In this document: piece after piece, positions 23,358 to 57,103 of the stretch
Numbering within the stretch: the first letter of the stretch is position 1
How the letters are laid out: the number at the start of each line of letters is the position of its first letter
From: Naegleria gruberi
Lineage: Eukaryota
Reading direction: 5' to 3' (one strand)
NCBI GenBank assembly: GCA_000004985.1
Contig: GG738871.1
DNA length: 64,000 nt
The notes under the pieces: model-generated
Told to the model about the DNA's origin: nothing
Databases searched by the model: none
Seen by the model: only the letters and a program-made list of their open reading frames with translations
Program-made: the position numbers and the translations under genes

Positions 23358-25070
23358 TTATTTTTCAACTAATGGTATTAAGAAATGGTTTGGTATTTTA
23401 CAATCGAAATAGGTTTCAGTCATTCTGATTTTTCTGAGTTTTTCAAACTTTTCTCGTTTAGGAAAAAAGCAAAATCCGTTCTGTTTAGCAGCAATTTCGC
23501 TTATTGTTTCATCTTTACGATGCAATGGAGCATGATATAATAAAAATCCATTCTTTTTAACCAATTCCATTACAATATTTCGATTTTTTAAAATTAAAAA
23601 ATTCATTTCTTCTCTTCCAATTTTCACATTTGGATTACGGACTTTCCATAGCCTTTCGTCATTGGTCAACCTATCTGAAGCTCCAAAAAAAGACCCTTTA
23701 TATTTGACTGCTGCCTCAACAACCTCAATATCGTTCTTTAGTTCGCTTGCCTCAATAAGAACACTTTTTAAAATTGAATCATTTTTCAATAATCGAATAA
23801 TGAATTGCTTGTCTCTCTTCAGAGTTGGATCTAAGAGTCTCATAAAATTCTGACAATTATTGTTATTTTCCAAAAGGGATTCAATAAATTCTTTGTCATG
23901 TTGTAACTCATTAGAGGCAAATAGGAAAGCCTTACACTCTTTCTTTACAGCATGTGTTACGATAGATTTGTCATTAATCAACACATCAGATGCAGCTTCC
24001 AAAGCTGAAGGAAAATTTGATATGGCTTCCCATACAATTTCATAATCATTTCTGTAAATATAGGGACAATAACAAAGCACGCCCCCTGATTTTCTCACAG
24101 TTTGCAAAACCAAATCTCTGTCAATACTATCCTCTTTCATCTTTGGAAAAATATACTCTATTCCATTGACGGCCAATTGTAACATCTCTCTAACAAATAG
24201 ATCATCATTCTTTAACTCTTCAGATGCATACATCATTGCACTTCCATGGATTAATATTGATCTTTTTACAATTTCTCTATGATTTCGGAATTCAGGTTTG
24301 ATAAATTCAATAATATTTGCAAATAAAGAACATTCCAAAATAAAGTCAACATCTTGCTTCAGATCATCGGTTGCATATTTAAATTGATATCGATTTTTTT
24401 TCACACAATTCAAAACCAATTCTCTATTGGATTTTAGCTCATCAGGGAATGATTCTAGACATGAGAAATGTTTCAAAATTTCAATGTCATTATGAAATTC
24501 TTTGGGTAAAAGGTGTTTTAGATCGGTCGAATTCATTCTTGCTATCATCTCTTTATGCGTGAAAAACAATCTATCACTTGCCAATTCATCTAAATAGGGT
24601 AGTAATGTCTCTCCGATTTTTACTTGGTAAGGCTCAATATTAGAAAGGACGAATTCTCTATTATTTCTCAATTCTTTTGACGCAAATTGAAACATGTTTG
24701 GAAAAATCATACAACAATCTTTCACAATTTGTGGATTGTTTTTAACATGAAAAGGTGAATCTTCACATAGCTGAAAATAATATTCCAATCTGAGGTTATA
24801 TTCTAAATACCAATAAAAAAACTTTTGTGCTATTGGATTTTTCTTGCCATTAGAAATTACAAACTCAAAAACTTCTTTATCATCAGTAAATTCGAGAGGC
24901 AAAAATTTGAATCTGTCTGGGTTCTCAAAATGTAAACGTCTGTTTTCGAGATAAAGAAGAAATCCTTTTTGTTGAGTTTGAAATTTTCGGATTAAAAGTT
25001 TGACTTGATGAGAAATGCAATGATCAAAATCTATCAGATAGAGAGTGGTGTGATGTGTGCTTCCAGACAT
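23358..25070 (-). CDS. DUF4116-repeat protein.
   Basis: About 12 degenerate ~35-aa repeats of the form ELKNNREFVLSNI / DELKSNRELVLNCVKKNRYQFKYATDDLKQDVDFIL / ELKNDIEVVEAAVKYKG. Single 570-aa ORF. Confidence 0.6.
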   Translation of the reverse strand: MSGSTHHTTLYLIDFDHCISHQVKLLIRKFQTQQKGFLLYLENRRLHFENPDRFKFLPLEFTDDKEVFEFVISNGKKNPIAQKFFYWYLEYNLRLEYYFQLCEDSPFHVKNNPQIVKDCCMIFPNMFQFASKELRNNREFVLSNIEPYQVKIGETLLPYLDELASDRLFFTHKEMIARMNSTDLKHLLPKEFHNDIEILKHFSCLESFPDELKSNRELVLNCVKKNRYQFKYATDDLKQDVDFILECSLFANIIEFIKPEFRNHREIVKRSILIHGSAMMYASEELKNDDLFVREMLQLAVNGIEYIFPKMKEDSIDRDLVLQTVRKSGGVLCYCPYIYRNDYEIVWEAISNFPSALEAASDVLINDKSIVTHAVKKECKAFLFASNELQHDKEFIESLLENNNNCQNFMRLLDPTLKRDKQFIIRLLKNDSILKSVLIEASELKNDIEVVEAAVKYKGSFFGASDRLTNDERLWKVRNPNVKIGREEMNFLILKNRNIVMELVKKNGFLLYHAPLHRKDETISEIAAKQNGFCFFPKREKFEKLRKIRMTETYFDCKIPNHFLIPLVEK

Positions 25071-27638: not shown

Positions 27639-30600
27639 ATGGTTACTGGAGGCAATCTTTCAGTATCTTGCTTTAAACAAGATGTAAAATCAGTTAGAGG
27701 CCTCATTGTCCTTCTCTTGTTGATTCTCTGTTTGACAACAATTGAGAAATGTTGTGGATATTACTACACAATGAATACTGTTGGTACCTTCACTTCTGGA
27801 ACCACCTTGTATCAAATGGACAAGTCCAAATTCTTCGCTAACAGATTCTACGTAGCAACAAGTGGAGGTCTTCAGTATTTCACTGTATCAAGTGGTGTGG
27901 CAAATCCAAGTAATTCTTATGTGTATAGTGGTGGGTTTCAAACTACCAGTATGGCAAATGTTGTTGTCAGAAGTACATCATCAAGTAAAGATGATGTTTT
28001 TTCTGGTACCATTAACACCTCCACTTGGAGGTATGGTTCAATAGCCAGTTCAACCACTACTGGTAATTCACTCACCAGTTGTGGCGTTATTGTTGCTGGT
28101 GTAAAACTCGATGCAAGCTCTACAACTTTTTCTGTGATTGGCAATGGTGTTGTGGGTACATTAACAATGACAACAGGTGGTAGTGCATCTTGTTCTGCAG
28201 TTACCTCATTTACAGGAGTTTCTGGCACAAGTACCACGCCATCTACTGATGGCACAGGTAGCGCAGCTACTGTTTACTCTAGTGGTACTCATGACATTAC
28301 CAAAAATTCAACATCTGGTGTAAGTATGAGAAAATTCAATTAATTAGATCTAACAACTGGCAGGTTTATTATTTTACTGAGGATTCAAAGATTAGAAAGG
28401 TTGTTTCAACTACTATCACAACTCTGGTAGGAGGAACTACTGGTACAGTGACAGATGGTACTCTCTCCTCTGCTACAGTTAAAAATCCAAGTTTCATGTC
28501 CATCTTGGGTGCAGGTGTAAGTTTTATTGCATTGTTATGATATATTAAACTGTTAACAGCTTGTATTTTCGGATACTGGTAGTAATAGAATTAGAGTTTT
28601 GGATACAGCCAATGAAGAAGTTGTTACTATTGCTGGTGGTGGCTCAACTACCCCATCAGGTACTGCTTCACTATCTGGTGCAGCAACAGGTTTTTCTTTA
28701 ACTAGCCCAAGAGGCATTTATGTGGACACTGATGACAGTATTTATTTTGTTGAAGGAATTTATGTTAGAAAGCTTGTCTATTCTTGTGAAGCAAATGAAA
28801 TTTATCAAGCAGGCTCATTCCCACCATGTGCTTGTAATACTACTGCTGGTTATGTGAGATCTGGAACTTCTTGCGTACCTACCTGTTCCAATTGTAATGT
28901 CAATCAAACATGTACTGGTCCAGAAACTTGTTCTTGTAAGAGTGGATATTCAGGAACAGATTGTTCTGCTTTTACCTGTTTTGGTGTAGCTCAAGATTCT
29001 ACATCTGTTTGTAATTCTAAAGGATATTGTGTTGCACCTGACACGTGTATATGTAGTGATACCTCCACTTTCTTTGGGTCAAATTGTAATGTGACTTATT
29101 GTAATTCTATTCCATCAACGAGTGGTAGTGTTTGTTCAGGACATGGAAGTTGTACTGATTATAATACTTGTACTTGTAGTGATACCAATTCATGGACAGG
29201 ATCTGATTGTGGAACACCTGTATGTGCAGTTGTGAGTGGAGGTGTTTGTTCTGGAAGAGGTAGTTGTACAGCTCCAAATATTTGCACTTGTAATGAACCA
29301 TCAAAATATGGTGGATCTTCATGTGAAATTCCAAAATGTAATGGAACACTTCAAGGCAATTCTGGTGTTTGCAATGGAAGAGGTTCTTGTATTGATGTTG
29401 ATACTTGTCAATGCACTGTTCCAACCTCTTGGGGTGGTTCATTCTGTGAAAAACCATACTGCTCTGGAATTTTACAAGGTGCAGCTGGTGTTTGTTCAAA
29501 TAGAGGAGTTTGTTCATCTCCTGATTCTTGTGTTTGTAATGAACAAACAAAGTATGGTGGTTCAAATTGTCAACTTGTCAAATGTGGAGGTTATTTGGAA
29601 ACAGACTCTGCTGTTTGTAACAAGAATGGTTCATGTATTGCTGTTGATACTTGTTCCTGTAATTCAAATTATGGTGGTTCAGATTGTCAATATCCAAAGT
29701 GTAATGGCATTGCTTCGAATAGTGGTAGTGTTTGTAATTCACAAGGATCATGTGTTGCACCAAATGTTTGTGTCTGTAATTCAAATTATGCTGGACCATT
29801 ATGCGAATATCCAAAATGTAATGGCGTAGCTTCCAATGATGCAAGTGTTTGCAATTCGAATGGAACTTGTACTGGTGTTAATACTTGTGTTTGTAATGTT
29901 AACTATACAGGATCATATTGTCAATATCCAAAATGTAATGGAATATCTTCCAATGATGCAAGTGTTTGTAATAACAAAGGTGGTAATTGTATTGCACCAA
30001 ATGTTTGTTCATGTAATTCAAGTTATACTGGTCAATTCTGTCAATTCCCAAAGTGTAATGGTATTGGATCCAATGATGCAAGTGTTTGTAATGCAAATGG
30101 TACTTGTATTGGAATTAATGTTTGTTCATGCAATTCAAATTATGCTGGTCCATATTGTCAATATCCAAAATGTAATGGTATTGCTTCAAATAGTGGTAGT
30201 GTTTGTAATTCACAAGGATCATGTGTTGCACCAAATGTTTGCGCCTGTAATTCAAATTATGCTGGTACATATTGTGATAAACCAAGATGTGGAACCTTTT
30301 ATAAGGGAGATGCTTCTGTTTGTAATTCGAGAGGTAGTTGTGATGCTGTTGATAGTTGTACTTGTAGTGATACATCTTCTTGGGGTGGTAATTTGTGTCA
30401 ATATCCAAAATGTAATGGTGTTCTTTCAAATATTGGAACTGTTTGTAGCAGTAGAGGTACTTGTCAATCTCCAAACAATTGTTCATGCACTGATCCAAAT
30501 TCATATGGTGGTTCATATTGTGAAAAAGCAAAATGTTATGGAATTCTTCAAGGAGATTCAAATGTTTGCAGTGGACATGGTACTTGTAGTGGTGTGAATC

Positions 30601-32542
30601 AATGTTCATGCAGTGCTGGATATGGAGGTGAACAATGTCAATATCCAAAATGTTTCAATATTTTGAGTAATGAAACAACAGTTTGTAACAATAGAAACGG
30701 TACTTGTACTGCACCTGACACTTGTTCATGTAATAATGGATGGACTGGAAGCAAGTGTGATGTTGCCATTTGTTTTTCAATTCTCTCCAATTCAACAAGT
30801 GTTTGTTCAAACAAGAGAGGTAATTGTGTCACACCAGATAATTGTGTTTGTAAAAGTCAATATTCAGGTTCTCAATGTGAATATACCACTTGTTCTGGAA
30901 TAAGATCAGATCAACATCGACAGTATGTTATGGAAATGGTCAATGTATTGATTATTTACTTGTAATTGTACAACTGGTTATGGACCATCCAATGTATGTC
31001 AATATCCAATTTGTGGTGGTTATTTAGCAAATGATACCAGAGTTTGTAACAATTCAAGAGGTGTTTGTTCCAAACCAAATACATGTAGACCATTAGATCC
31101 CGTATGTTATGGTAAAGCTCAGAATAATTCAATGGTTTGCAGTGGAAATGGAGCATGTGTTGATTGGGATTATTGTGAATGTAAAACTGGTTTCAATGGA
31201 AATGAATGTCAAAATTGGGAATGTTATGGAAAGAATTATACCAACTCAAATGTTTGTAACAATAGAAATGGTACCTGTTCATCTGTGAATAATTGTGTTT
31301 GCAACAGTGGATGGTATGGAAATGAATGTACAGTTCCAATGTGTAATGGAATTCTTGCTAATTCATCTCTCATTTGTAACAATAGAAATGGTACCTGCTC
31401 CAAACCAGGTGCATGTCAATGTAATACTGGATACACAGGACCTGATTGCTCCATTCCAATTTGTTATGGAAAATTAGGCAAGTGACACAAGTAATGTTTG
31501 TTCAGGAAGAGCAGAATGTATTGGTTATAACAAGTGTAATTGTGACACTTCCAAGTATAGTGGTTCACAATGTGAATATTTCAAATGTTTTGGTATTCCA
31601 TCAAATGATGCTTCAGTTTGCAGCAGAAACGGAACATGCTCTGGAGTGAATCAATGTTCTTGTAATTATGGTTATGGTTCTTCAAATTGTGACATTTTCA
31701 CATGTTCAAACGTTCTTGCCACCGATTCGAGTGTTTGCACTGGAAAGGGTGTATGTTATGGAATTGACAAGTGTTCATGTGATTCAGGATATTTTGGATC
31801 AAATTGTGAAATTATCTCCTGTTATGGAATTCCAAAGTCCAACAATACTGTATGTGGAGGAGTTGGTGAATGTTCACAACTTGATACATGTGTTTGTGGA
31901 AGCAATTATAGAGGATCAATGTGTGAATTATCTTACACCTCTTCATCTCAAGCAACACTTCAATTCAATAATACGAATGAATATGTGAATGAACAATTCA
32001 CAAGCATGGCCACTTTGACAATTAATAATCCTCTCTTCGGTCAATATTATTTGAGAAGAAGTGTTCAAGTTGTTGTTTCATTTGAAATTAATTCACAATT
32101 CAGTTATTCTGAAACACTTTATATTGAAAATGGAGTTTCATCTGTTTCATTAATGGTGAAATCGTTGAGTCAAACTGGTACATTGAAAGCATCTGCTCAA
32201 TTAATTGATAATAGTACATTAATTTCCATTTCAGATAGCATTCAATCTTCAAATAGCATTACAATTCAAAATAGACCTATTGTTGTTCCATCCACAACGA
32301 CATCCACAATCAAACCAACAACCTCTGCACAAACAAGTAGAGCTGTTATCGATACAGGAAGTAATGGTGGAGCCATTGCAGCTGGTATCATTGTTCCAGT
32401 GGCAGTTATTGGAATTGGAGGTGGTGTCACTGCAGCCATTGTCACAGCAGTTGTTTTGTTAAAGAAGAAGGCTGCTGCAGCTGCTGCCAAAGAAATTACA
32501 CATGCTCAACACGTCAATGTTGAACTAGCTGAAGGTTTCTAA
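27639..32542 (+). pseudogene. NHL-propeller/EGF-repeat membrane protein paralog A. Exons 27639..28319, 28364..28516 and 28560..32542; three frameshifting indels near 30913, 30956 and 31480 relative to paralog B.
   Basis: Same architecture as B (44914..49716). 28860-32542 is ~98% identical to 46030-49716 at nucleotide level, but reading requires frames 0, 1 and 2 (ORFs 28599..30965, 31132..31485, 31646..32542). Could be a recent pseudogene or assembly indels. Confidence 0.55.
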
Positions 32543-44913: not shown

Positions 44914-47900
44914 ATGAAACTAGTGAGCTTTCCCTATCATTTGTTGATTGCTGCTTGTGTAGTGTTACTTCTTGGCAAAGTTAGTGCATGGAGATATTCT
45001 GTGAAAACTCTTGCTACAGGTCTAGGCAGTATTTCTCAAATTGTTGGCTCTCCAAAATATATTTATGTTACACTTGGCTCCAGTTCAAAGAAGATTTATG
45101 CCTACGATAGACAATTATTGGCCACTCAGTCTGTACAAACATTGCAACAAGTCCACGATATAACAGCATCATCAAACAATATTGGTTATATTGCTTATCA
45201 TGGCAATGATTCGAATGACGCTGAAGTGATATCAGTAGCTGGCAATAATTTTCCAAACAATGTGGGTTTGTACTGGTTTACATGCTCATCAACCTGTTCC
45301 ACTCCAACACCCTTCTCTTATAATATAAGGGTCTCAGGAATTAGATCCCTAGGAATTGAGAACTCAACTCCCAAACTTTACATAACAAGACAAACAGCAA
45401 TTTACACTGGCACTCCTTCAGCAAATGCTATTGTATCAACAACTGGAACAATCAATTTTAAAGCTTTCAATGATGTTGATTATATTGGCAATACAGTAAG
45501 TTTTAATTATTTTGCAAATAGGTAACATTGGTTTAGGTTTATTTTACTGACTCAGGTGGAAACCTAAAAATTGCAACAAGTTCAACACCATTAATCAGTG
45601 TAGGCACATTTAGTGATGGTGCCAGTGGTACTGCTCGTTTATCTTCAGGCACAACATTCATCTCTGCACAGTTCAATAAGGTATGTAGTTATGAACAATA
45701 TGTTGTTGGAATAATTTTAAAAGATTTTTATCTCAGACACTGGAAACAGTAGAATTAGACTTTATGATATTGCTACAGGAATTACAACTACAATAGCTGG
45801 TGATCCTTCTAAATCAACAGCTGGAACAACAACTTTCAGTTTATCCGACGTACCAACTAATTACAAATTCACACCAACAGGTATTTGGATTGATAACTCT
45901 AATGGTATCATTTATTTTGCAGACACCAGTACCTTGAGAGCTTTAGTTCCAACTTGTAACAGTACTACAGAAGATCAATCTTCAACTTACCCTTTCTGTA
46001 CTTGTAAAACTGGATATTCATTGGTAAATGGAGATTGTGTTGCATCCACTAGTTGTTCTCCAGGATTGTGTAATGACAATCAAACATGTACTGGCCCAGA
46101 AACTTGTTCTTGTAAGAGTGGATATTATGGAACAAATTGTGATAATTATGACTGTTATGGAACTCAGAAGGATAATCTTTCTGTATGTAATGGAAAAGGT
46201 GTTTGCGTTTCTCCAAACACGTGTATTTGCACCAATGCAAACTATGATGGCTTTAATTGTAATATTACAACTTGTAATTCTATTCCATCAACGAGTGGTA
46301 GTGTTTGTTCTGGACATGGAAGTTGTACTGATTATAATACTTGTGCTTGTAGTGATACCAATTCATGGACAGGATCTGATTGTGGAACACCTGTATGTGC
46401 AGCTGTGAGTGGAGGTGTTTGTTCTGGAAGAGGTAGTTGTACAGCTCCAAATATTTGTACTTGTAATGAACCATCAAAATATGGTGGATCTTCATGTGAA
46501 ATTCCAAAATGTAATGGAACACTTCAAGGCAATTCTGGTGTTTGCAATGGAAGAGGTTCTTGTATTGATGTTGATACTTGTCAATGCACTGTTCCAACCT
46601 CTTGGGGTGGTTCATTCTGTGAAAAACCATACTGCTCTGGAATTTTACAAGGTGCAGCTGGTGTTTGTTCAAATAGAGGTGTTTGTTCATCTCCTGATTC
46701 TTGTGTTTGTAATGAACAAACAAAGTATGGTGGTTCAAATTGTCAACTTGTTAAATGTGGAGGTTATTTAGAAACAGACTCTGCTGTTTGTAACAAGAAT
46801 GGTTCATGTATTGCTGTTGATACTTGTTCCTGTAATTCAAATTATGATGGCCAATTTTGTCAATATCCAAAATGTAATGGCATTGCTTCAAATAGTGGTA
46901 GTGTTTGTAATTCACAAGGATCATGTGTTGCACCAAATGTCTGCTCTTGTTTCACAAATTATGCTGGACCATTATGCGAATATCCAAAATGTAATGGCGT
47001 AGCTTCCAATGATGCAAGTGTTTGTAGCTCGAATGGTACCTGTACTGGTGTTAATACTTGTGTTTGTAATGTTAACTATACAGGATCATATTGTCAATAT
47101 CCAAAATGTAATGGAATATCTTCAAACGATGCAAGTGTCTGTAATAACAAAGGTGGTAATTGTATTGCACCAAATGTTTGTTCATGTAATTCAAGTTATA
47201 CTGGTCAATTCTGTCAATTCCCAAAGTGTAATGGTATTGGATCCAATGATGCAAGTGTTTGTAGTGCAAATGGTACTTGTATTGGAATTAATATTTGTTC
47301 ATGCAATTCAAATTATGCTGGTCCATATTGTCAGTATCCAAAATGTAATGGCATTGCTTCAAATAGTGGTAGTGTTTGTAATTCACAAGGATCATGTGTT
47401 GCACCAAATGTTTGCGCCTGTAATTCAAATTATGGTGGTACATATTGTGATAAACCAAGATGTGGAACCTTTTACAAGGGAGATGCTTCTGTTTGTAATT
47501 CGAGAGGTAGTTGTGATGCTGTTGATAGTTGTACTTGTAGTGATACTTCTTCTTGGGGTGGCAATTTGTGTCAATATCCAAAATGTAATGGTGTTCTTTC
47601 AAATATTGGAACTGTTTGTAGCAGTAGAGGTACTTGTCAATCTCCAAACAATTGTTCATGCACTGATCCAAATTCATATGGTGGTTCATATTGTGAAAAA
47701 GCAAAATGTTATGGAATTCTTCAAGGAGATTCAAATGTTTGTAGTGGACATGGTACTTGTAGTGGTGTGAATCAATGTTCATGTAGTGCTGGATATGGAG
47801 GTGAACAATGTCAATATCCAAAATGTTTCAATATTTTGAGTAATGAAACAACAGTTTGTAACAATAGAAACGGTACTTGTACTGCTCCTGACACTTGTTC

Positions 47901-49716
47901 ATGTAAAAATGGATGGACTGGAAGCAAGTGTGATGTTGCCATTTGTTATTCAATTCTCTCCAATTCAACAAGTGTTTGTTCAAACAAGAGAGGTAATTGT
48001 GTCACACCAGATAATTGTGTTTGTAAAAGTCAATATTCAGGTTCTCAATGTGAATATACCACTTGTTCTGGAATAAGATCAGATCAAACATCGACAGTAT
48101 GTTATGGAAATGGTCAATGTATTGATTATAATACTTGTAATTGTACAACTGGTTATGGACCATCCAATGTATGTCAATATCCAATTTGTGGTGGTTATTT
48201 AGCAAATGATGCCAGAGTTTGTAACAATTCAAGAGGTGTTTGTTCCAAACCAAATACATGTAGACCATTAGATCCCGTATGTTATGGTAAAGCTCAGAAT
48301 AATTCAATGGTTTGCAGTGGAAATGGAGCATGCGTTGATTGGGATTATTGTGAATGTAAAACTGGTTTCAATGGAAATGAATGTCAAAATTGGGAATGTT
48401 ATGGAAAGAATTATACCAACTCAAATGTCTGTAACAATGGAAATGGTACCTGTTCATCTGTGAATAATTGTGTTTGTAACAGTGGATGGTATGGAAACGA
48501 ATGTACAGTTCCAATGTGTAATGGAATTCTTGGCAATTCATCTCTCGTTTGTAACAATAGAAATGGTACCTGCTCCAAACCAGGTGCATGTCAATGTAAT
48601 ACTGGATACACAGGACCTGATTGCTCCATTCCAATTTGTTATGGAAAATTAGGCACTGATACAAGTAATGTTTGTTCAGGAAGAGCAGAATGTATTGGTT
48701 ATAACAAGTGTAATTGTGACACTTCCAAGTATAGTGGTTCACAATGTGAATATTTCAAATGTTTTGGTATTCCATCAAATGATGCTTCAGTTTGCAGCAG
48801 AAACGGAACATGCTCTGGAGTGAATCAATGTTCTTGTAATTATGGTTATGGTTCTTCAAATTGTGACACTTTCACATGTTCAAATGTTCTTGCCACCAAT
48901 TCAAGTGTTTGCAGTGGAAAGGGTGTATGTTATGGAATTGACAAGTGTTCATGTGATTCAGGATATTTCAGTACCAATTGCGAGCTATTTTCTTGTTATG
49001 GAATTCCAAAGTCCAACAATACTGTATGTGGAGGAGTTGGTGAATGTTCACAACTTGATACATGTGTTTGTGGAAGCAATTATAGAGGATCAATGTGTGA
49101 ATTATCTTACACCTCTTCATCTCAAGCAACACTTCAATTCAATAATACGAATGAATATGTGAATGAACAATTCACAAGCATGGCCACTTTGACAATTAAT
49201 AATCCTCTCTTCGGTCAATATTATTTGAGAAGAAGTGTTCAAGTTGTTGTTTCATTCCAAATTAATTCACAATTCAGTTATTCTGAAACACTTTATATTG
49301 AAAATGGAGTTTCATCTGTTTCATTAATGGTGAAATCATTGAGTCAAACTGGTACATTGAAAGCATCTGCTCAATTAATTGATAATAGTACATTGATTTC
49401 CATTTCAGATAGTATTCAATCTTCAAATAGCATTACAATTCAAAATAGACCTATTGTTGTTCCATCCACAAAGACATCCACAACCAAACCAACAACCTCT
49501 GCACAAACAAGTAGAGCTGTTATCGATACAGGAAGTAATGGTGGAGCCATTGCAGCTGGTATCATTGTTCCAGTGGCAGTTATTGGAATTGGAGGTGGTG
49601 TCACTGCAGCCATTGTCACAGCAGTTGTTTTATTAAAGAAGAAGGCTGCTGCAGCTGCTGCCAAAGAAATTGCACATGCCCAACACGTCAATGTTGAACT
49701 AGCTGAAGGTTTCTAA
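44914..49716 (+). CDS. NHL-propeller/EGF-repeat type I membrane glycoprotein, paralog B (intact). Exons 44914..45495, 45546..45680 and 45724..49716.
   Basis: Signal peptide MKLVSFPYHLLIAACVVLLLGKVSA. NHL-like blades (VYFTDSGGNLKIA; IFISDTGNSRIRLYDIATGITTTIAG; GIWIDNSNGIIYFADTSTL). About 35 EGF/tenascin-like Cys modules, a Cys-free ~170-aa domain, Ser/Thr stalk, helix GGAIAAGIIVPVAVIGIGGGVTAAIVTAVVLL, and tail KKKAAAAAAKEIAHAQHVNVELAEGF. Introns GTAAGT...TTTAG and GTATGT...AAAAG. Confidence 0.8.
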
Positions 49717-49863: not shown

Positions 49864-52411
49864 ATGCAAGATGATAACATTGAGGGCTTTACTCTAGATT
49901 CGTCCCTCATCGACGATTCTCCTCTCATTGAAGAATACCTTTCAAACTTTAGTTCAACAACCATCGTTTCAGAAGAAGATCACTCTCCACCTACATTATC
50001 TTATTATTCCTCCTTCCAGAAACAAACACCTTCACCTGCTCTGATAACAGCAACCAATATTCCAACAACCAATACTACAATAAGCTCTTCAACCGATCCA
50101 ACTTCTCCAAAGAGGATTCCCTCACTCCGAGAAAAACTTCAAGTACTCGTCGATAAGGCTCATGAAAAGAAAAAGTCGAGCAACAATCTTCTCGAAGAAG
50201 AAGATGGTGCCATCCCCTCCTCTCCTCCATCACAGATGATTTCAACAGTTCCTTCTAAAGTTGAGCCATTAATTGTTGCCTCGAATTTATCAATTGAAAA
50301 AACAACCGACACTATCATTGAGGCTAATAATATTGAGAGGGAAAATGATTTGATGGCTGAACAAGTTGAAGACCCAACAACTGCAAACACTAAGCAAGAT
50401 AATACTCAAAAGCCTCTGTATAATAGAAAAAGCAACAAACAAGACTATGAGCTGCAACAAGCCATTCAGAAGGAACTAGCCACATCAGCAGCAAAAATGG
50501 CGGCAAACCTCCCTCCAAAATCAAAGCCTGAATTAAATAGAGCAAAAGAATTGAAAAAAATGGATGAACAATATCACTTTGAAGGATACAAAAATATTGA
50601 GGAATCACAACACTATCATAATGATGATGATGAGGAGGAACAAGAAGATTTAAATGATAGCATCCATAGGGATGAAGATGAGGAGTTTCATAATCAATTA
50701 AATGCTGATATTTCCCTTATTGAGGAAGATAAGAAGGACGATACACAATATAATTCATTTACTGTAGAAGAGGAAAAGCTTGAATTGAGCGATGAAGAAG
50801 GGGATTTAACAGGAAGAGCAATGGAAGACTTGACAGTCTCGAAATTAGAAGCCTCCACAACTTCGGTCGATCAATCTCTCACCTTATCCTCCTTAACAAC
50901 ACCAGTAAGAACATCTTCTCCACTAAACCAAAGAGCCCGACCAAATTCTTCAATGAGAAGCAGTACTCCTAGTTATATGAACTCCACAAGAGCTTCAATC
51001 TCTAAGGAGATTTCGAGAGCATCAGTAGATTTGAGATGTAAGTAGTGTTGACCATTCATTAACAATGTTCTTCTTTCTAAATAGCCTCGGCATCAGACAT
51101 GAGGATGAGATTCGGAATGATTAACTATCAACAAAGACCACCACCAGCCAACAGATCACCTTCTCCAAATATTGTGCAAAAGAGAAGAGTTACACCAAGA
51201 AAAGAAAGAATTTATAATATAGTACCAGCATTACATTTTGAAGACATTTCGGTAACAACAGGTTTGGGAGTAAGTACATGAATTCTTTGAAAATGATAAT
51301 TATCATTTAGACAATATCTGTTCCGAACTATAGACTCACCTCTCTTAAAGGCTTGGGAGTTAAAAGAGATTTGAAAATCTTGTACCTTCAAAACAATTAC
51401 CTTGCCTCATTCAATCACCTCGAAACTCAACCTAATTTAGAAGTACTTTATGTGGCAAACAATTGTATTAGCTCTTTCTTTGGATTCAAAACTCAACCAA
51501 AATTGACCTTAATCAGTCTCGAAGGAAATCCTATTACCAAACACCCTCATTACAGACTGATGACTTTAATTGTTTGTGGAAGCCAATTAAAAAAGATCGA
51601 TGGTGAAATGGTTCAATACAAAGAAAGAGAATTCGTGAAACACTATCTTTCAGCTAATGAAAGGGCTGTAGAAGCCATACGTTCTGGATGGCTAATGGAT
51701 CCAAAACCAAGAACAAACGAAGAATTCCAAGATATAATCCGAGGTCTCTTACTTCAAAACTTTGATGACAGAGAAAGCATCAGAAACACTCAATCATTTA
51801 AAGATTTAGTAAGTGGAGCACTAGCAAAAACTACACCAGCTGTAGATTTGAACGATTTTGAAGAGAAGAAAAAGATTCAACACAAAGAAGAAATCCAATC
51901 ACCAGATTTATCCCATGGAAGTAGTGGAGGATTCAATTCAGCTTTCCTAACAAATTATATCAACGAAATTAAGCAACTTAAAGGACAACTGGAGAAGAAG
52001 GCAGAGGAATTGAAAGAAGAGAAACAAAAATATAAGGACTTGAAAGAGAGCAGCATAGGAATTGATGAATTGAATCTCCTAGACAAAACAATCATATCAA
52101 ATATCGCAGTCTCTCTCAATTCGACAGAAGAAATTGTGGAAAATGTGACCATTGCTTTCACCTTGGATACAATGGAAATTTCAACAACTGAGGAAATTTT
52201 GAGAGATATTGAGTACGAGGCAGTTACACGAACAAGCTTATTGGTTGATGAACAAAAGCTTTTCAGAGTACACATCAGAATGAACACCAGTGAATTGTTG
52301 GATATCATAACATCAGATAAGAAACAATCACTCTCGATATACAAGATACTTCACATGAAAGTTGCTCATGCCAATAAGCAAAAGAAGCTGAGACAACAGG
52401 CAAACAAATAA
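49864..52411 (+). CDS. Leucine-rich-repeat (SDS22-like LRR plus LRRcap) protein with long acidic/Ser-rich N-terminal region. Exons 49864..51037, 51085..51269 and 51311..52411.
   Basis: LKILYLQNNYLASFNHLETQPNLEVLYVANNCISSFFGFKTQPKLTLISLEGNPITKHPHYRLMTLIVCGSQLKKIDG. Two short introns (47 and 41 nt, GTAAGT donors) join three ORFs lying in different frames. Confidence 0.55.
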
Positions 52412-52420
52412 ATATTCAAG

Positions 52421-54299
52421 CTACTGCTGTTTATCTGTAATGACAATATTCTCAGAAACTCTCAAAATCGATTTGGCTATTTCAATAGCATTCTCTAAAA
52501 TGGCCATTTTGGTGAAAACAGAATCAAATATTCCAAGTTTTAGCATATCATCTTCGTCAGGATTGTTGTTAGAAATTAAATCCTCGAAATCTTCCAAACT
52601 AATGACTTGTCTTGCTGGAATACCAATATGAGGAGATTTTGTGTTCCTTTGCTTTTTGGTGATAAGCTGTAGAGTTTTTTCAATTGGTAAATTTGAATTC
52701 AAGCACAAAGTTTCTGGAACTATCCTCAAAGCCTTTATAAAGGCATCCACTCCAGAGTGGTTCAAACTAACATTGAGAAACTCTTTAGAATAGAGTTCTT
52801 CGAGTTTCCACATTGTGTAAATTTCAAACGATCCTCCACCAGTTAGAAAGATTGGATCATCCTTCAAATCCTTTGCTCTCAACTCCTCAAATGTTACCAT
52901 TGCTGTGAATAGGGCATCTTGGGCATGTCTGACAAACTCCTCACACTGCTCACTCGTACTTGCCCTTATAATAGCTGTGCAGGTTGTTTGCATGTTGGTA
53001 AAGAATTCCTCACTTGCCTTTATCATTGTACATTTGGAATAAGAAGAGTTCACACCACCACTAATATGAAAAGTATTCACACTCTCAATCATACCCAGAT
53101 AAAGTTTCTCGTCCAATTTAAAATATTCAAAATCACTCTGCAATTCCTCAATAGATTGTAAATACCGAATGTTAAATGTTTTACAAGCAAAATCACAAAC
53201 TTCATGTCCTGAATTTGCCAAGCATAAAATTCCAAAATTTTGCAAGTAATGCGAAACTAAATCGTGCACATGGCCCGAGCATAGAACTATATTAGCACCA
53301 AAATTTTTAATGCATTCTGCCATACTTTTGAATACCATTTCTTCATCAATCTGTGGTGCTCAATAATTCCATATTGTCCAATTAACATACCTTCCAATTT
53401 TCCAATGCCTCAATTGTATCCAAAATAGCATAATGCTTTGTTTTAGTCCTTTGCCTTTGCAGTGAATTTTTAATAACCAGTAATTTGTAAGGTGTATCTT
53501 TTTTCAATTCCTCTATATTTGTAGTCGAAACTTGTGAAAGAATCAAAGTTTTGGGCAGATATTCCACTTTTCCAAATAATCCAGGAATTTGTATTAATTT
53601 AATATCATCCATATTGAAAAGATAATTATCTTTCATGACACTATCAAAATTTCAAAAACATCCACAATCAAAAAACACTAACCTCTTGATAGATCCTGTC
53701 AATAAATCTGACAAGTAATGTCCATTAATATGTACCGATGTTTTTGAAGATAAAGCACAATTCACAACACTCTTCACCAACATTTCCTGTTCATTTTCCA
53801 ATTTTACTAAGGCTTCCTTCATTATCACAGATTTAATAATTTCCAAACATGTATCGTATCCATCCAATATATTTCCAATCGGAAAGCCTTCCTTAACATG
53901 TTTCATATATCCATTCTCACTATGAACATTAATATTCTAATTATATTCTTCTCCTTACATTAATGAACATGCAATCAAGGCTGTTGAAGTTGTTCCATCT
54001 CCAATCAAGCGATCCAAAGATAGTACCGATTCAACAAGTAATTTAGCAGCAGGCTGTTGAACACTCAATTGTTTTAATATAAAAGCTCCATCCTGACTCA
54101 CAACCACTCTAAAAAATCATCATCATCGGAATCATCAATAATTATTCGGAATTTAAATTTTACCTTTTTTGTGGAGTGACTATCAACTTGGATCTTGCGT
54201 TAGGTCCTAGTGATGATGTAAGAATGTCCTTCAGGGCTACAATGGCCATCACATTTTCATGGAGAGATGAAATTTCTCTTCCCAGTTGTCGATTCATTT
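52421..54299 (-). CDS. Divergent TCP-1/Cpn60-family (group II chaperonin-like) protein. Five exons: 54164..54299, 53959..54108, 53683..53919, 53391..53640, 52421..53350.
   Basis: N-terminus reads MNRQLGREISSLHENVMAIVALKDILTSSLGPNARSKLIVTPQKR/VVVSQDGAFILKQLSVQQPAAKLLVESVLSLDRLIGDGTTSTALIAC (GDGTT ATP motif). The apical TGGGSFEI and C-terminal MLKLGIFDSVFTKMAILENAIEIAKSILRV signatures are present. Canonical CCT motifs are degenerate (GPNARSK for GPKGMDK; SQDGAFIL for TNDGATIL). Introns of 55, 39, 42 and 40 nt. Confidence 0.6.
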
Positions 54300-54404: not shown

Positions 54405-55544
54405 TTAATATTCATCATCTTCGTTTTGAGTTGATTTGTGAATATTTAAATTTCCATTTCTGCTGAATGTGAAATTTTGTTGTTCTCCTCTTATGGTAGG
54501 TTTGGAATGTGTTTCCAACAAAATGTCATCTGATTTAATTTCATTTTTTGATTCTTCCTGTTCTTTTTGTAATTTTTCTAAGAATTCCAAATGTTTTCTT
54601 TGTCTTGGATTAAGTGGGAGGGGTCTTGAGATTCGTTCAACTTTTCTTTCCTCATTCGAAAGGTCATTTCTTCTACTTTTCTTTGAAACGAGCCCTTCAC
54701 CATCACTCTCTGAAAAGTGTTCATTCGAAACAACTTCTTCTTCGTTTCTTTCCTCTGTTTCGTCCTCTTTCTCTTTCGATTCGTCTTCATCACTGGAAAA
54801 GAATGGAGCTCCTTCCAATGCCTTCTTCTTTTCCTTCAATTTCTTCAATCGTTTGCTTCTCTCCTTCTCCACCTTCTTCTCATACAATTTCATAAAATGT
54901 TTATCTTTCAACATTTCCTCTTCCAGAACTGAAATTTCAGTTTTGGAAATTTTAATCTTGTAACAATCAATGAAAAGTCCAACAATGGTCGATACGAAAA
55001 ATAAAACCATCGAAACAATCAGTACAATACTAGTAATGTCCTTCTTGAATACCAAATCAGTATAATTCTCAAAGAAAGAGCTCGATCTCTCAAATCTCCA
55101 CTGATTTCCCAGACAAATCATTCCATTCGAAAAGTTTCTGCTCCCCTCTTCGCATTGATAACAGTGGTGATGAATGCACTCCAGGTCTCCTTCCAGCCAC
55201 AGGGAATTACCCAAATCACTGGTTGTTTCCATTGTTTCCTCATTGGAATTATCGGCACAGACCCATTTAGAGAGGAGAATATTTCTGGAACAGTTGGCAG
55301 CCCATTTTGGATGCTCTGTGATGAGAACACATTGTTTCAAACTCTCGGAGCAATACTCACCCACAGAGCAATCGGGATGAATTGGAAAATTTGGATATTG
55401 ATGTGGAGGAATCGAACGACATGAAGAAGAGCTTGCTAATGTTGGTGTGAATGAATTTACAATTGTGATGAAGAAGAAAATAATGATGTATAAGAGGGGT
55501 GATGATTGGTTGGTTTTCCGTACGGAATTATCTGTTGAAAACAT
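54405..55544 (-). CDS. Type I membrane protein with Cys-rich ectodomain and highly charged Lys/Glu-rich cytoplasmic tail.
   Basis: Probable start MFSTDNSVRKTNQSSPLLYIIIFFFITIVNSFTPTLA (signal). About 14 Cys ectodomain, TM ITSIVLIVSMVLFFVSTIVGLFI, then KEKKKALEG...DEDESKEKEDETEERNEEE tail. The upstream part of ORF 54405..55649 overlaps the neighbouring gene's 3-prime end, so the start was set at 55544. Confidence 0.45.
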   Translation of the reverse strand: MFSTDNSVRKTNQSSPLLYIIIFFFITIVNSFTPTLASSSSCRSIPPHQYPNFPIHPDCSVGEYCSESLKQCVLITEHPKWAANCSRNILLSKWVCADNSNEETMETTSDLGNSLWLEGDLECIHHHCYQCEEGSRNFSNGMICLGNQWRFERSSSFFENYTDLVFKKDITSIVLIVSMVLFFVSTIVGLFIDCYKIKISKTEISVLEEEMLKDKHFMKLYEKKVEKERSKRLKKLKEKKKALEGAPFFSSDEDESKEKEDETEERNEEEVVSNEHFSESDGEGLVSKKSRRNDLSNEERKVERISRPLPLNPRQRKHLEFLEKLQKEQEESKNEIKSDDILLETHSKPTIRGEQQNFTFSRNGNLNIHKSTQNEDDEY

Positions 55545-55635
55545 GGTTGATACTATGGAATGATTAAGGTACAATTTTTTTTTAAGGAAATTTCCTATTT
55601 TGTAAATTTTTAGTTTACAAATAAATGAATGTATT

Positions 55636-57103
55636 TTATAGAAAATCATTTTCCTCTAAGGCACAAGGTGCTGCGTCTTCGGCAATGTGAATATGAGACT
55701 TTCCTCCAGGTCCATTCAGTTGCATCTTATTTCCACAAATTGTTGATGTCTTGGTTGATTCCAAAACAATGGCATTTCTGGTGTGTCCACTAAAGACACT
55801 TCTCTCAATTCTCATAGAGGCCTCACCTTTGCAGAGAATGGCATTTCCATCATTCTTTTGAAAGAGACTTTTGGTTACTTCACACAGAGTGTCATCTTCG
55901 AGTCGCATTCCATGAAGTTTGTTAAATTCCACGTGGCACTCGGTCATGATTAATTTGGGAGGATCACAAATTGGTTTCTTACTACCAGTCGATGGCAGTG
56001 GCGGTGGAGGTGGTTGAGTGTTTGATTCAATTGATGCTGTCGAAGGAGTTGTAGAAACTGCTGCATCAGTTGTGTTTTTCACAGGTGGAATGTATAATCT
56101 ATTCTTTACAGTAACACCAACTCCATAACTTGCTCTCAAATGGACATGTTGCAGAGTGCATGATCCTGAAACAATTTCCAAACACGACGCCGATTCATAA
56201 AATAAAATACTATCCCTAGCAGCATTCTGTGTGAGTGTGACATGTTCAAATTTGACACTTCCCCCACCATCCAATAAACGTTGTTTTTCCAATTGTTGAA
56301 TTGTTAAATTCTCATTAAAAGAGTCCACTCTCAAAATTGATTTTGAGCTATCCGAAGAGGCAATATGTACAAGTGATGAATCTGGATAAACTCCACGAAT
56401 GGTGAGTGGTTTCTTAATGACAACTGTTTCAGGAACTTTGTAAATTCCACTTCTCAAAACAACATGGTCTCCCTCCTTTGCAAAATCAACAGCTCTCTGT
56501 ATATCATGAAAAGTACAATCTTCACTAAAATCTGGATCAACTACATGAAGTCTGTAATCTGAATTCCTAACAGATGAATCATTAATTTCCTTTATCCAAT
56601 TGCTTTGGTCATTTTCATCCTCACAAGCAAGATAATAAGTACGATGAGGTGAAATGATTTTAATACCAAATTTCTTTTTGTAATTCAATTCGGCTGCTTG
56701 ACAAGTTAATCCCTGAACATTAATCATTCCTTTGGGTTTGGTATCTTTCTGTGATACATAGTAATATAATTTTCCTCTATTTTTTAAATTATTAATAAGT
56801 ATTGTAGGTTAAAGATGAGAATATAGTATTCGAAACACATACTGATGCAAAATACATAATCTCTCGTGCCATGTTTTAATGGAACCTCCTCGTTTGGTCT
56901 ATTCATTTCAAATATATTATGAAAATGTATAACGGTTATTATTATTGAAATTGTTCCGAATACAAATTGTTTCGAATAAAACCTACCAGTGTTCCTACAA
57001 AGTCGTGGTCTCTCATCAATTCAGAAGCAGATACTTTGGGTGGTTCCTCCACTATCTCCTTCCACTTCTTACCAGCCTTCTTTACTTTATCTTGTGATGA
57101 CAT
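55636..57103 (-). CDS. PH-domain protein with C-terminal right-handed beta-helix (PbH1/CASH-like) domain. Exons 56987..57103, 56843..56898 and 55636..56776.
   Basis: MSSQDKVKKAGKKWKEIVEEPPKVSASELMRDHDFVGTL/TKRGGSIKTWHERLCILHQ/GKLYYVSQKDTKPKGMINVQGLTCQAAELNYKKKFGIKIISPHRTYYLACEDENDQSNWIKEIN is a complete PH domain split by two introns (88 and 66 nt). Then repetitive beta-helix rungs and a Pro-rich linker PPPPPLP. Confidence 0.65.

What the first reader, a model, noticed from the sequence alone, without database searches (positions are those of the whole stretch)
52421..54299. Divergent group II chaperonin-family member
The protein retains the TCP-1 ATP-binding GDGTT motif and overall length, but its canonical CCT signature blocks are degenerate. 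A divergent extra chaperonin could be a specialised CCT paralog or a BBS/MKKS-type chaperonin-like protein. The latter would imply a ciliated or flagellated life stage.
Basis: partly seen in the sequence, partly recalled or inferred. Interest (0 to 1): 0.5.

Follow-up and report, generated by a model that had tools for sequence, protein, structure and literature searches.

The report
Extra divergent chaperonin gene in Naegleria
This is a real, selectively maintained gene for an unusual ninth relative of the eukaryotic protein-folding machine CCT/TRiC, found so far only in Naegleria and related amoebae; it is neither a standard CCT subunit nor a recognisable Bardet-Biedl-type chaperonin.

Summary
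Window 52421-54297 (minus strand) carries a five-exon gene with four 39-55 nt GT..AG introns. It encodes a 566-aa group II chaperonin (Pfam Cpn60_TCP1, E=7e-75). GDGTT and the other ATP-site residues are kept, but all three TCP-1 signature patterns fail.

The host is a Naegleria, a known amoeboflagellate. Orthologs were found only in heteroloboseans: N. lovaniensis (55%), Willaertia (43%), Pharyngomonas, Acrasis and unnamed environmental contigs. The next-best hits were generic thermosomes and CCTs at about 25% identity.

dN/dS against a congener is 0.07, so the gene is functional.

It fits none of the eight canonical subunits. It scores 60-100 bits against each human CCT, whereas those paralogs score 160-360 bits against each other. 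It shares 0-24% of subunit-diagnostic residues. It also lacks the N-terminal ring-contact strand.

It shows no specific affinity to MKKS, BBS10 or BBS12 (≤26 bits; profile scores 64-107 against 364-500 for CCTs).

Distance trees and profile comparison place it as sister to CCT8/theta (68-84% bootstrap). It carries no theta signature residues, so long-branch attraction is not excluded.

Best reading: a heterolobosean-specific, ATPase-competent extra CCT-like paralog with unknown clients. The BBS reading is not supported.

The parts
54164..54297 (-). Exon 1 (ATG at 54297; codons 1-44 plus 2 nt). It includes LGPNARSK (aa 30-37, window 54187-54210), the altered 'GP-G-DK' nucleotide-binding loop.
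   Evidence: splice model; junction matches orthologs; motif alignment. Only 107 nt separate the ATG from the stop of the upstream gene at 54405, so there is no room for a further 5' exon.
54109..54163 (-). Intron 1, 55 nt, GT..AG
53959..54108 (-). Exon 2. It holds the stem-loop and SQDGAFIL (aa 49-56, window 54075-54098), and the P-loop GDGTT (aa 81-85, window 53988-54002).
53920..53958 (-). Intron 2, 39 nt, GT..AG
53683..53919 (-). Exon 3 (equatorial/intermediate domain). It includes ALSSKTS with the conserved Lys154 (window 53736-53756).
53641..53682 (-). Intron 3, 42 nt, GT..AG
53391..53640 (-). Exon 4 (start of the apical domain and first half of the helical-protrusion/lid segment LQRQRTKTKHYAIL...).
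   Evidence: (helix 252-275 in the ortholog model)
53351..53390 (-). Intron 4, 40 nt, GT..AG
52421..53350 (-). Exon 5 (309 codons plus the TAG stop): rest of the apical domain, intermediate domain and C-terminal equatorial domain. Features:
- catalytic-Asp helix RHAQDAL (aa 398-404, window 52910-52930)
- GGGSFE (aa 428-433, window 52823-52840)
- a 13-15 aa lineage-specific insertion within aa 503-529 (window 52535-52615)
- GIFDS (window 52520-52534) in place of the canonical G-x-x-E-P
   Evidence: dN/dS of 0.07 over exons 4-5 against the congener contig L001

Best explanation
The locus is a functional gene in a Naegleria genome. It encodes a ninth, strongly divergent group II chaperonin (CCT/thermosome family). 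It belongs to a previously unnamed family detected only in Heterolobosea (Naegleria, Willaertia, Acrasis, Pharyngomonas) and in unnamed environmental contigs. It is not one of the canonical CCT1-8 subunits and is not a recognisable MKKS, BBS10 or BBS12. Its closest but weakly supported relative is the CCT8/theta lineage, the same lineage that gave rise to the animal BBS chaperonin-like proteins and mammalian CCT8L.

Shown:
- a three-domain group II fold with the built-in helical lid
- retention of every residue class needed to bind and hydrolyse ATP: GP loop, NDG-type Asp, GDGTT, sensing-loop Lys, catalytic Asp in '..DAL', GGGxxE
- strong purifying selection
- loss of the N-terminal strand that canonical subunits contribute to the inter-subunit beta-sheet of the ring

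Inferred:
- It runs an ATP-driven open/close chaperonin cycle on a specialised, lineage-specific set of clients.
- It works as an accessory or alternative partner of the canonical CCT ring rather than as one of its eight fixed positions.

The clients are unknown.
For: - Gene model and domain.
- Organism and family: N. lovaniensis 55%, Willaertia 43%. The exhaustive profile search of 1.84 billion representatives used a profile of 397 positions covering only the apical and C-terminal two-thirds. It found 8 hits below 1e-30, including Pharyngomonas kirbyi and Acrasis kona, then dropped to generic thermosome/CCT hits at 1e-20 and weaker.
- Synteny with N. lovaniensis.
- Not canonical: 60-100 bits to each human CCT and 96-115 to thermosomes, whereas human CCT paralogs score 160-360 with each other.
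- Canonical clades exclude the family at 86-100% bootstrap.
- Subunit-diagnostic residues shared: alpha 0/8, beta 0/30, gamma 2/17, delta 3/56, epsilon 5/21, zeta 0/112, eta 3/55, theta 0/6 strict and 2/40 relaxed.
- Theta affinity: sister to the whole theta clade in 68-84% of neighbour-joining bootstraps. hhalign scores are CCT8 500, thermosome 487, CCT5 404, CCT7 364.
- ATP site and core: 34 of 47 universal columns kept, including all catalytic ones, against 47-51% for the BBS proteins.
- Fold: AF2 model of the ortholog has pLDDT 85 and pTM 0.84 and starts directly with helix 1. Foldseek top hits are closed-state TRiC subunits and thermosomes, TM 0.78-0.89.
- Function maintained: dN/dS 0.07 against the congener.
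Against: - I could not inspect a whole Naegleria genome. That it also has all eight canonical CCT genes, theta in particular, rests on general knowledge that CCT is universal, not on a test here.
- The theta-sister placement comes from distance methods only. With theta removed the family wanders to other long branches, which is what long-branch attraction looks like. It shares no theta signature residues.
- 'Heterolobosea only' depends on four named members. Several members are unnamed environmental sequences.
- No expression, interaction or activity data were available.
Confidence: 0.68

Rival explanations
1. It is a BBS-type chaperonin-like protein: an ortholog, or a functional analog, of MKKS/BBS6, BBS10 or BBS12. 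It would hand BBS7 and other BBSome parts to CCT during the amoeba-to-flagellate transition.
For: - The host makes flagella de novo (PMC3144413, PMC4819266).
- The BBS proteins are also fast-evolving offshoots attributed to the CCT8 lineage (PMC2846930), and this family also groups with theta.
- A super-group of this family, theta and the BBS proteins has 68% bootstrap.
- Like the BBS proteins, it has a short N-terminus. From the start to the 'GP' motif is about 31 aa, against 30-38 in BBS10, BBS12 and MKKS and about 48 in CCT8 (sequence inspection).
- MKKS shares 4-6 of 24 family-specific rare residues, against 0-4 for other divergent chaperonins. This is a faint signal.
- Possible non-animal BBS6 and BBS12-like proteins have been reported (PMC10074162).
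Against: - phmmer gives 20.6 and 24.3 bits to MKKS and BBS10, and no hit to BBS12.
- hhalign gives 107, 79 and 64 against 364-500 for CCT and thermosome profiles.
- The BBS clade excludes the family in the NJ tree (68%).
- The ATP-hydrolysis site is intact, unlike in MKKS and BBS12 (PMC5534436).
- The large BBS10/BBS12 insertions are absent.
- A 40-species survey placed the origin of chaperonin-like BBS proteins in Opimoda, with candidates only in animals, Mastigamoeba, Malawimonas and Dictyostelium (PMC10074162).
- The family is also present in Acrasis. No paper I read here describes a flagellate stage for Acrasis.
Confidence: 0.12
2. It is the heterolobosean CCT8/theta subunit itself, extremely diverged, sitting in the normal theta position of the ring.
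For: - It is sister to the theta clade in 68-84% of bootstraps.
- The best profile-profile score is to CCT8.
- Relative to thermosome scores, theta is its best human match.
- It shares the '(I/V)(F/W)DS' motif, and its insertion lies in the same loop as a small theta insertion.
- I could not show that a separate canonical theta exists in Naegleria. Literature searches found nothing, and matching sample accessions failed.
Against: - It shares none of 6 strict and only 2 of 40 relaxed theta-diagnostic residues. It keeps the ancestral state where all thetas are derived (NDG not NDA, GDGTT not GDGTN, E395, and Q rather than the theta-specific D at 401).
- Theta is monophyletic without it at 99-100%.
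- It scores 34-126 bits against 32 diverse thetas, which score about 380-720 bits with human theta apart from one divergent outlier at 163.
- It lacks the N-terminal ring strand.
- It evolves fast even within Naegleria, at 55% identity between two species.
Confidence: 0.07
3. It descends from an archaeal thermosome gene acquired by horizontal transfer in an ancestor of Heterolobosea, or is a pre-LECA paralog lost everywhere else, rather than a duplicate of a eukaryotic CCT gene.
For: - The best pairwise hits of all five full-length members are thermosomes or an ancestral group II reconstruction.
- The first non-family hit of the exhaustive search is a Freyarchaeota thermosome.
- It keeps ancestral residues at positions where individual CCT subunits are derived.
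Against: - Thermosomes resemble the family consensus, so any divergent member scores best against them. Human CCTs do too.
- It never groups with the thermosomes as a whole in bootstraps (0%).
- No particular archaeal group stands out.
- The gene has four spliceosomal introns and host-like composition.
Confidence: 0.06

Closest known systems
CCT8 / TCP-1 theta subunit of the eukaryotic chaperonin TRiC/CCT
   Same: - Group II chaperonin fold with lid.
- Best profile-profile match and sister position in distance trees.
- The 'GPN' loop and '(I/V)(F/W)DS' motif are shared, and there is an insertion in the same C-terminal loop.
- A similar fraction of universal residues is retained: 72% against a mean of 77% for thetas.
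   Different: - About 23% identity.
- None of the theta-diagnostic residues.
- It keeps GDGTT and NDG-type motifs that theta has altered.
- It lacks the N-terminal strand.
- It is restricted to Heterolobosea, whereas theta is universal in eukaryotes.
Archaeal thermosome (for example Thermoplasma acidophilum, PDB 1a6d; Methanococcus Mm-cpn)
   Same: - Highest raw sequence scores.
- Structural match at TM 0.82-0.89 normalised to the target.
- The complete ATP-site motif set is present.
   Different: - About 24% identity.
- All three TCP-1 signature patterns are lost.
- There is no N-terminal strand.
- It is a eukaryotic gene with introns.
- Whether it forms rings is unknown.
MKKS/BBS6, BBS10 and BBS12 (chaperonin-like BBSome assembly factors)
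   Same: - Non-canonical, fast-evolving extra members of the CCT family attributed to the CCT8 lineage (PMC2846930).
- Short N-terminus.
- TCP-1 signatures lost.
- Found in an organism that builds flagella.
   Different: - No specific sequence or profile affinity.
- Excluded from the BBS clade in the NJ tree (68% bootstrap).
- Much less degenerate: 72% against 47-51% of universal residues.
- ATP-hydrolysis motifs are intact, where those of MKKS and BBS12 are not (PMC5534436).
- The large BBS10/BBS12 insertions are absent.
Mammalian CCT8L1/CCT8L2 and the Dictyostelium 'BBS12-like' orphan DDB_G0268902
   Same: These are precedents for lineage-restricted, rapidly evolving extra CCT-like genes. 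CCT8L derives from CCT8 (PMC2846930). The best outside hits of the Dictyostelium orphan are archaeal thermosomes (PMC10074162), as here.
   Different: They occur in different lineages, with no evidence of orthology. I had no CCT8L or Dictyostelium sequences to compare. CCT8L is an intron-less retrogene, whereas this gene has four introns.

Membership tests
Group II chaperonin superfamily (Pfam PF00118 Cpn60_TCP1; CCT/thermosome) | Full-length match to the family profile above the curated threshold | tested here: met
   253 bits against a cut-off of 34.3, E=6.9e-75, residues 22-559 on profile positions 1-486 of 490.
Group II chaperonin superfamily (Pfam PF00118 Cpn60_TCP1; CCT/thermosome) | Equatorial, intermediate and apical domains with a helical-protrusion lid | tested here: met
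   The AF2 model of the 55%-identical N. lovaniensis ortholog has pLDDT 85 and pTM 0.84. Foldseek against the PDB gives closed TRiC subunits and thermosomes at TM 0.78-0.89. The test was on the ortholog, not on the window protein itself.
Group II chaperonin superfamily (Pfam PF00118 Cpn60_TCP1; CCT/thermosome) | ATP-binding and hydrolysis residues (GP loop, NDG Asp, GDGTT, sensing-loop Lys, catalytic Asp, GGGxxE) | tested here: met
   All are present in the query and in four other full-length family members. In the GP loop, G-x-D-K has become A-R-S-K. Activity itself was not tested.
Canonical CCT subunit (any one of CCT1-8) | Much higher similarity to one orthologous subunit than to the other paralogs | tested here: not met
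   It scores 59.5-99.5 bits against the eight human subunits with no outlier. In the same data, non-human orthologs mostly score about 350-1000 bits to their own human subunit, with a few divergent outliers lower.
Canonical CCT subunit (any one of CCT1-8) | Falls inside one of the eight subunit clades | tested here: not met
   Neighbour-joining with bootstrap recovers alpha, beta, gamma, delta, epsilon and eta clades at 86-100% without it, and theta at 99-100% without it. These are distance methods only.
Canonical CCT subunit (any one of CCT1-8) | Carries the residues diagnostic of a subunit | tested here: not met
   Shared by at least 3 of 5 family members: alpha 0/8, beta 0/30, gamma 2/17, delta 3/56, epsilon 5/21, zeta 0/112, eta 3/55, theta 0/6. 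Sampling of beta, gamma, delta and zeta was thin.
Canonical CCT subunit (any one of CCT1-8) | TCP-1 signature patterns (PROSITE-type, three blocks) | tested here: not met
   0 of 3 match in the query, while all 3 match in all eight human CCTs and two thermosomes. The patterns were written from memory and validated only by those positive controls.
Canonical CCT subunit (any one of CCT1-8) | Occupies a fixed position in the hetero-oligomeric double ring | not testable with these tools
   The only indirect evidence is the missing N-terminal inter-subunit strand.
CCT8/theta ortholog | It is the only theta-like gene in the genome | not testable with these tools
   No eukaryotic genome collection was searchable. 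Literature searches and a comparison of sample accessions gave nothing.
BBS chaperonin-like proteins (MKKS/BBS6, BBS10, BBS12) | Specific sequence or profile similarity to one of the three families | tested here: not met
   phmmer: MKKS 20.6, BBS10 24.3, BBS12 no hit. hhalign: 107, 64 and 79. The reference sequences are verified database entries. The reference profiles are vertebrate-only.
BBS chaperonin-like proteins (MKKS/BBS6, BBS10, BBS12) | Groups with the BBS clade in a phylogeny | tested here: not met
   MKKS+BBS10+BBS12 form a clade at 68% that excludes the family. In that tree the family sits next to theta. Support is moderate, and the method is prone to long-branch artefacts.
BBS chaperonin-like proteins (MKKS/BBS6, BBS10, BBS12) | Family-specific insertions in the intermediate and equatorial domains (2 in MKKS, 3 in BBS10, 5 in BBS12; PMC5534436) | tested here: inconclusive
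   The large BBS10/BBS12 insertions are absent. One 13-15 aa insertion lies in the same C-terminal equatorial loop as the long MKKS insertion. Theta also has a small insertion there, and the metagenomic family member P0110 lacks it.
BBS chaperonin-like proteins (MKKS/BBS6, BBS10, BBS12) | Acts in BBSome assembly (binds BBS7 and bridges to CCT) | not testable with these tools
   This needs expression and interaction data.
BBS chaperonin-like proteins (MKKS/BBS6, BBS10, BBS12) | Co-occurs with BBSome genes | not tested
   Pfam scans of ten large ORFs in the window found no BBSome domains. The rest of the genome was not available.

The most novel reading that the evidence does not exclude
Heterolobosea keep a ninth, ATPase-active CCT-like chaperonin dedicated to lineage-specific clients. 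Two candidate client sets stand out. One is the highly divergent mitosis-only tubulins reported for Naegleria, Acrasis and Stachyamoeba (PMC9036621). The other is the burst of tubulin and flagellar proteins made during de novo basal-body assembly. Alternatively, it is a surviving pre-LECA ninth CCT paralog lost in all other eukaryotes. Either would make it a natural experiment in how TRiC specificity is rewired.
Probability: 0.12. Interest if true: 0.7.

Novelty: new variant of a known kind. Interest (0 to 1): 0.4.

Why it matters
CCT/TRiC is usually treated as a fixed eight-subunit machine. The known extras (BBS6, BBS10, BBS12, CCT8L, CCT6B) are animal-centred, and a recent survey placed the origin of chaperonin-like BBS proteins in Opimoda (PMC10074162). 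A conserved extra family in a distant excavate lineage, under purifying selection and apparently still ATPase-competent, would show that extra CCT-like paralogs have arisen in more than one eukaryotic lineage.

It also gives Naegleria researchers a concrete candidate for specialised folding of cytoskeletal clients. Naegleria already serves as a model for de novo centriole assembly and for divergent tubulins.

This is a modest finding. The fold and chemistry are ordinary, the orthologs already sit in databases as 'hypothetical protein', and function is only inferred.

Tried and rejected
I used ortholog P0002 plus the window exons instead. As a result the exhaustive profile covered only the apical and C-terminal 397 positions.
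- The first AF2 run, with a 7-sequence alignment, was unusable (pLDDT 47). It was redone with 105 sequences.
- The afdb50 fold library was unavailable, so I got no named AlphaFold neighbours.
- A combined MKKS+BBS10+BBS12 profile search returned only mammalian MKKS. Human BBS10, MKKS and CCT1-8, written from memory, were then confirmed as exact database entries. My BBS12 was not exact, so real BBS12 sequences were fetched.
- Mukherjee & Brocchieri 2013 (PMC3760595) is not held. The supplements of PMC10074162 are not held.
- Searches for a Naegleria CCT8 in the literature found nothing.
- I looked for a canonical theta from the same sequencing sample as a family member. The samples differ. One AT-rich theta transcript (P0017, GC3 25%) is a possible but unproven Naegleria theta.
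- Exact look-ups of two window ORFs to name the species failed.
- A rare-residue-sharing test for a hidden BBS relationship gave 4-6 of 24 for MKKS against 0-4 for control divergent chaperonins. This is too weak to use.
- I considered a pseudogene and rejected it: the reading frame is intact, all splice sites are canonical, and dN/dS is 0.07.
Full report
**Observation**

The bacterial-code ORF list shows only fragments on the minus strand between 52421 and 54300. Reading the strand shows a eukaryotic gene with short introns. My model has five exons: 54297-54164, 54108-53959, 53919-53683, 53640-53391 and 53350-52421. The four GT..AG introns are 55, 39, 42 and 40 nt. The CDS is 1701 nt and encodes 566 aa. 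Each junction aligns seamlessly to orthologs.

The upstream gene ends at 54405, 107 nt before the ATG, so the short N-terminus is real. Pfam Cpn60_TCP1 covers residues 22-559 (E=6.9e-75). GDGTT is at aa 81-85. Three TCP-1 signature patterns matched all eight human CCTs and two thermosomes but not this protein.

**Organism and family**

The window is AT-rich (about 34% GC). The nearest proteins are:
- an 80%-identical partial product on a Logan contig
- N. lovaniensis 'hypothetical protein C9374_000299' (55%)
- Willaertia magna (43%)
- two partial environmental sequences

After these, identity falls to 27% or less, to CCTs and thermosomes.

The locus is syntenic with N. lovaniensis contig PYSW02000009.1. 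Both have a convergent LRR_9 gene downstream and a PH/beta-helix gene upstream. The host is therefore a Naegleria, a classic amoeboflagellate (PMC3144413, PMC4819266). Exact look-ups did not identify the species.

A profile of the family was scanned against 1.84 billion representative proteins. It covered the apical and C-terminal 397 positions only. It found 8 hits below 1e-30. Two of them could be named: Pharyngomonas kirbyi (4.7e-40) and an Acrasis kona fragment (6.5e-34). Scores then dropped to a Freyarchaeota thermosome (1.9e-20) and a continuum of thetas, epsilons and thermosomes. All named members are heteroloboseans.

**Is the gene functional?**

Against the congener contig L001, 390 aligned codons give pN 0.085, pS 0.62 and dN/dS about 0.07. 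dS is near saturation, but constraint is clearly strong.

**Is it a canonical subunit?**

I obtained verified reference sequences. Human CCT1-8, MKKS and BBS10, written from memory, were found as exact database entries. MKKS and BBS12 orthologs were fetched by search.

- Scores: the query scores 59.5-99.5 bits against the eight human CCTs and 96-115 against two thermosomes. Human paralogs score 160-360 bits against each other.
- Trees: neighbour-joining recovers the alpha, beta, gamma, delta, epsilon and eta clades at 86-100% bootstrap without the family. The family itself is monophyletic at 81-100%.
- Diagnostic residues: I defined these as at least 80% conserved in one subunit and at most 20% in every other group. 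The family shares at most 24% of them (epsilon 5/21). For theta it shares 0/6 strict and 2/40 relaxed.
- Structure: the N-terminal strand that canonical subunits and thermosomes contribute to the inter-subunit sheet is absent in all family members.

**Relationship to theta**

With the BBS sequences left out, the family is sister to the whole theta clade in 68-82% of bootstraps (49 taxa, four distance corrections) and in 84% (218 taxa). hhalign against equally deep profiles gives CCT8 500, thermosome 487, CCT5 404 and CCT7 364.

Two things weaken this. With theta removed, the family jumps to assorted long branches. It also keeps ancestral residues where all thetas are derived. I therefore treat theta affinity as the best available placement, but it cannot be separated from long-branch attraction. 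The literature reports the same position for the BBS proteins and CCT8L (PMC2846930).

**Is it BBS-type?**

- phmmer gives 20.6 bits to MKKS, 24.3 to BBS10 and nothing to BBS12.
- hhalign gives 107, 64 and 79.
- The three BBS families cluster together at 68% without this family.
- The family keeps 72% of 47 universally conserved columns, including every ATP-site residue. The figures are 47-51% for the BBS proteins and a mean of 77% for thetas.
- MKKS and BBS12 are known for degenerate hydrolysis motifs and family-specific insertions (PMC5534436). Here the large insertions are missing. The one 13-15 aa insertion, in a C-terminal loop, is not even universal in the family.
- A rare-residue-sharing test gave only a faint excess for MKKS (4-6 of 24 against 0-4 in controls).
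- A 2023 survey of 40 eukaryotes found chaperonin-like BBS proteins mainly in animals, with candidates in Mastigamoeba, Malawimonas and Dictyostelium. It concluded that they arose early in Opimoda (PMC10074162).

Membership in the BBS families is not supported. A very old shared origin in the CCT8 lineage stays open.

**Structure**

The shallow-alignment model failed. With 105 homologs, the N. lovaniensis ortholog folds confidently (pLDDT 85, pTM 0.84). It shows the three domains and the lid helix, and it has no N-terminal strand. Foldseek finds closed-state TRiC subunits and thermosomes (TM 0.78-0.89 on the target, 18-23% identity) with no preference for any subunit.

**Mechanism**

Shown: the group II fold, an intact nucleotide site, the lid segment, constraint on the sequence, and loss of a ring-contact element.

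Inferred: an ATP-driven chaperonin cycle on specialised clients, acting beside or in variable association with canonical CCT.

Speculative: the clients might be the divergent mitotic tubulins of heteroloboseans (PMC9036621) or proteins needed for de novo flagellar assembly.

**Verdict**

This is a real and mildly novel gene family: a lineage-restricted, non-canonical but apparently catalytically competent CCT-like paralog. The BBS reading is not. The flagellated-stage inference is moot for Naegleria. The main gap is the untested assumption that the genome also holds a conventional CCT8.

Noticed in passing
window 49864-52411 (+), ending 9 nt from the chaperonin stop at 52421: A convergent neighbour gene encodes an LRR_9/LRR_8 protein with a coiled-coil tail. 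It is probably one multi-exon gene joining ORFs 49864-51045 and 51353-52411, since its N. lovaniensis counterpart is 737 aa. The stop codons of the two genes are only 9 nt apart, so their 3' UTRs must overlap. The pairing is conserved in N. lovaniensis and in two environmental contigs (L014, L015).
   Followed up: partly
window 289-4107, 28599-30965, 45934-49716 (all +): Three large ORFs (1272, 788 and 1260 aa) are packed with teneurin-type or EGF_2 repeats (Pfam E-values from 1e-52 to 1e-60). This looks like a local family of EGF-repeat surface proteins in one 50-kb stretch.
   Followed up: no
window 14587-16971 (+); 23358-25070 (-): There is a calpain-family cysteine protease (Peptidase_C2, 1e-37) and a protein made of eight DUF4116 repeats (4e-67).
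   Followed up: no
window 54405-55649 (-), directly upstream of the chaperonin: This 414-aa ORF has no Pfam match. It has a Cys-rich N-terminal half, a predicted transmembrane stretch and a long Lys/Glu/Ser-rich acidic tail. It overlaps the next ORF (55636-56727, PH + beta-helix) by 14 nt.
   Followed up: no
P0207 (603 aa) and P0209 (482 aa), from the representative search: These are two other very divergent orphan group II chaperonins of unknown origin. P0207 scores only 91 bits to a thermosome, and P0209 scores 163 bits to CCT8. Both suggest further unclassified CCT-like lineages in environmental eukaryotes.
   Followed up: partly
L001 632-1867 (Logan SRR25266747 contig), product P0001: The database gene call for the closest ortholog reads through intron 4 ('VCQFSINHLVLIHLSL') and starts inside exon 4. 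Public protein entries for this family are therefore partly mis-modelled. No N. gruberi or N. fowleri labelled ortholog appeared in the searches.
   Followed up: partly
L002 (Logan SRR14039607), product P0017: This canonical CCT8-type transcript has Naegleria-like composition (CDS GC 39%, GC3 25%). It is a candidate for the conventional theta of a related organism, but its origin could not be established.
   Followed up: partly
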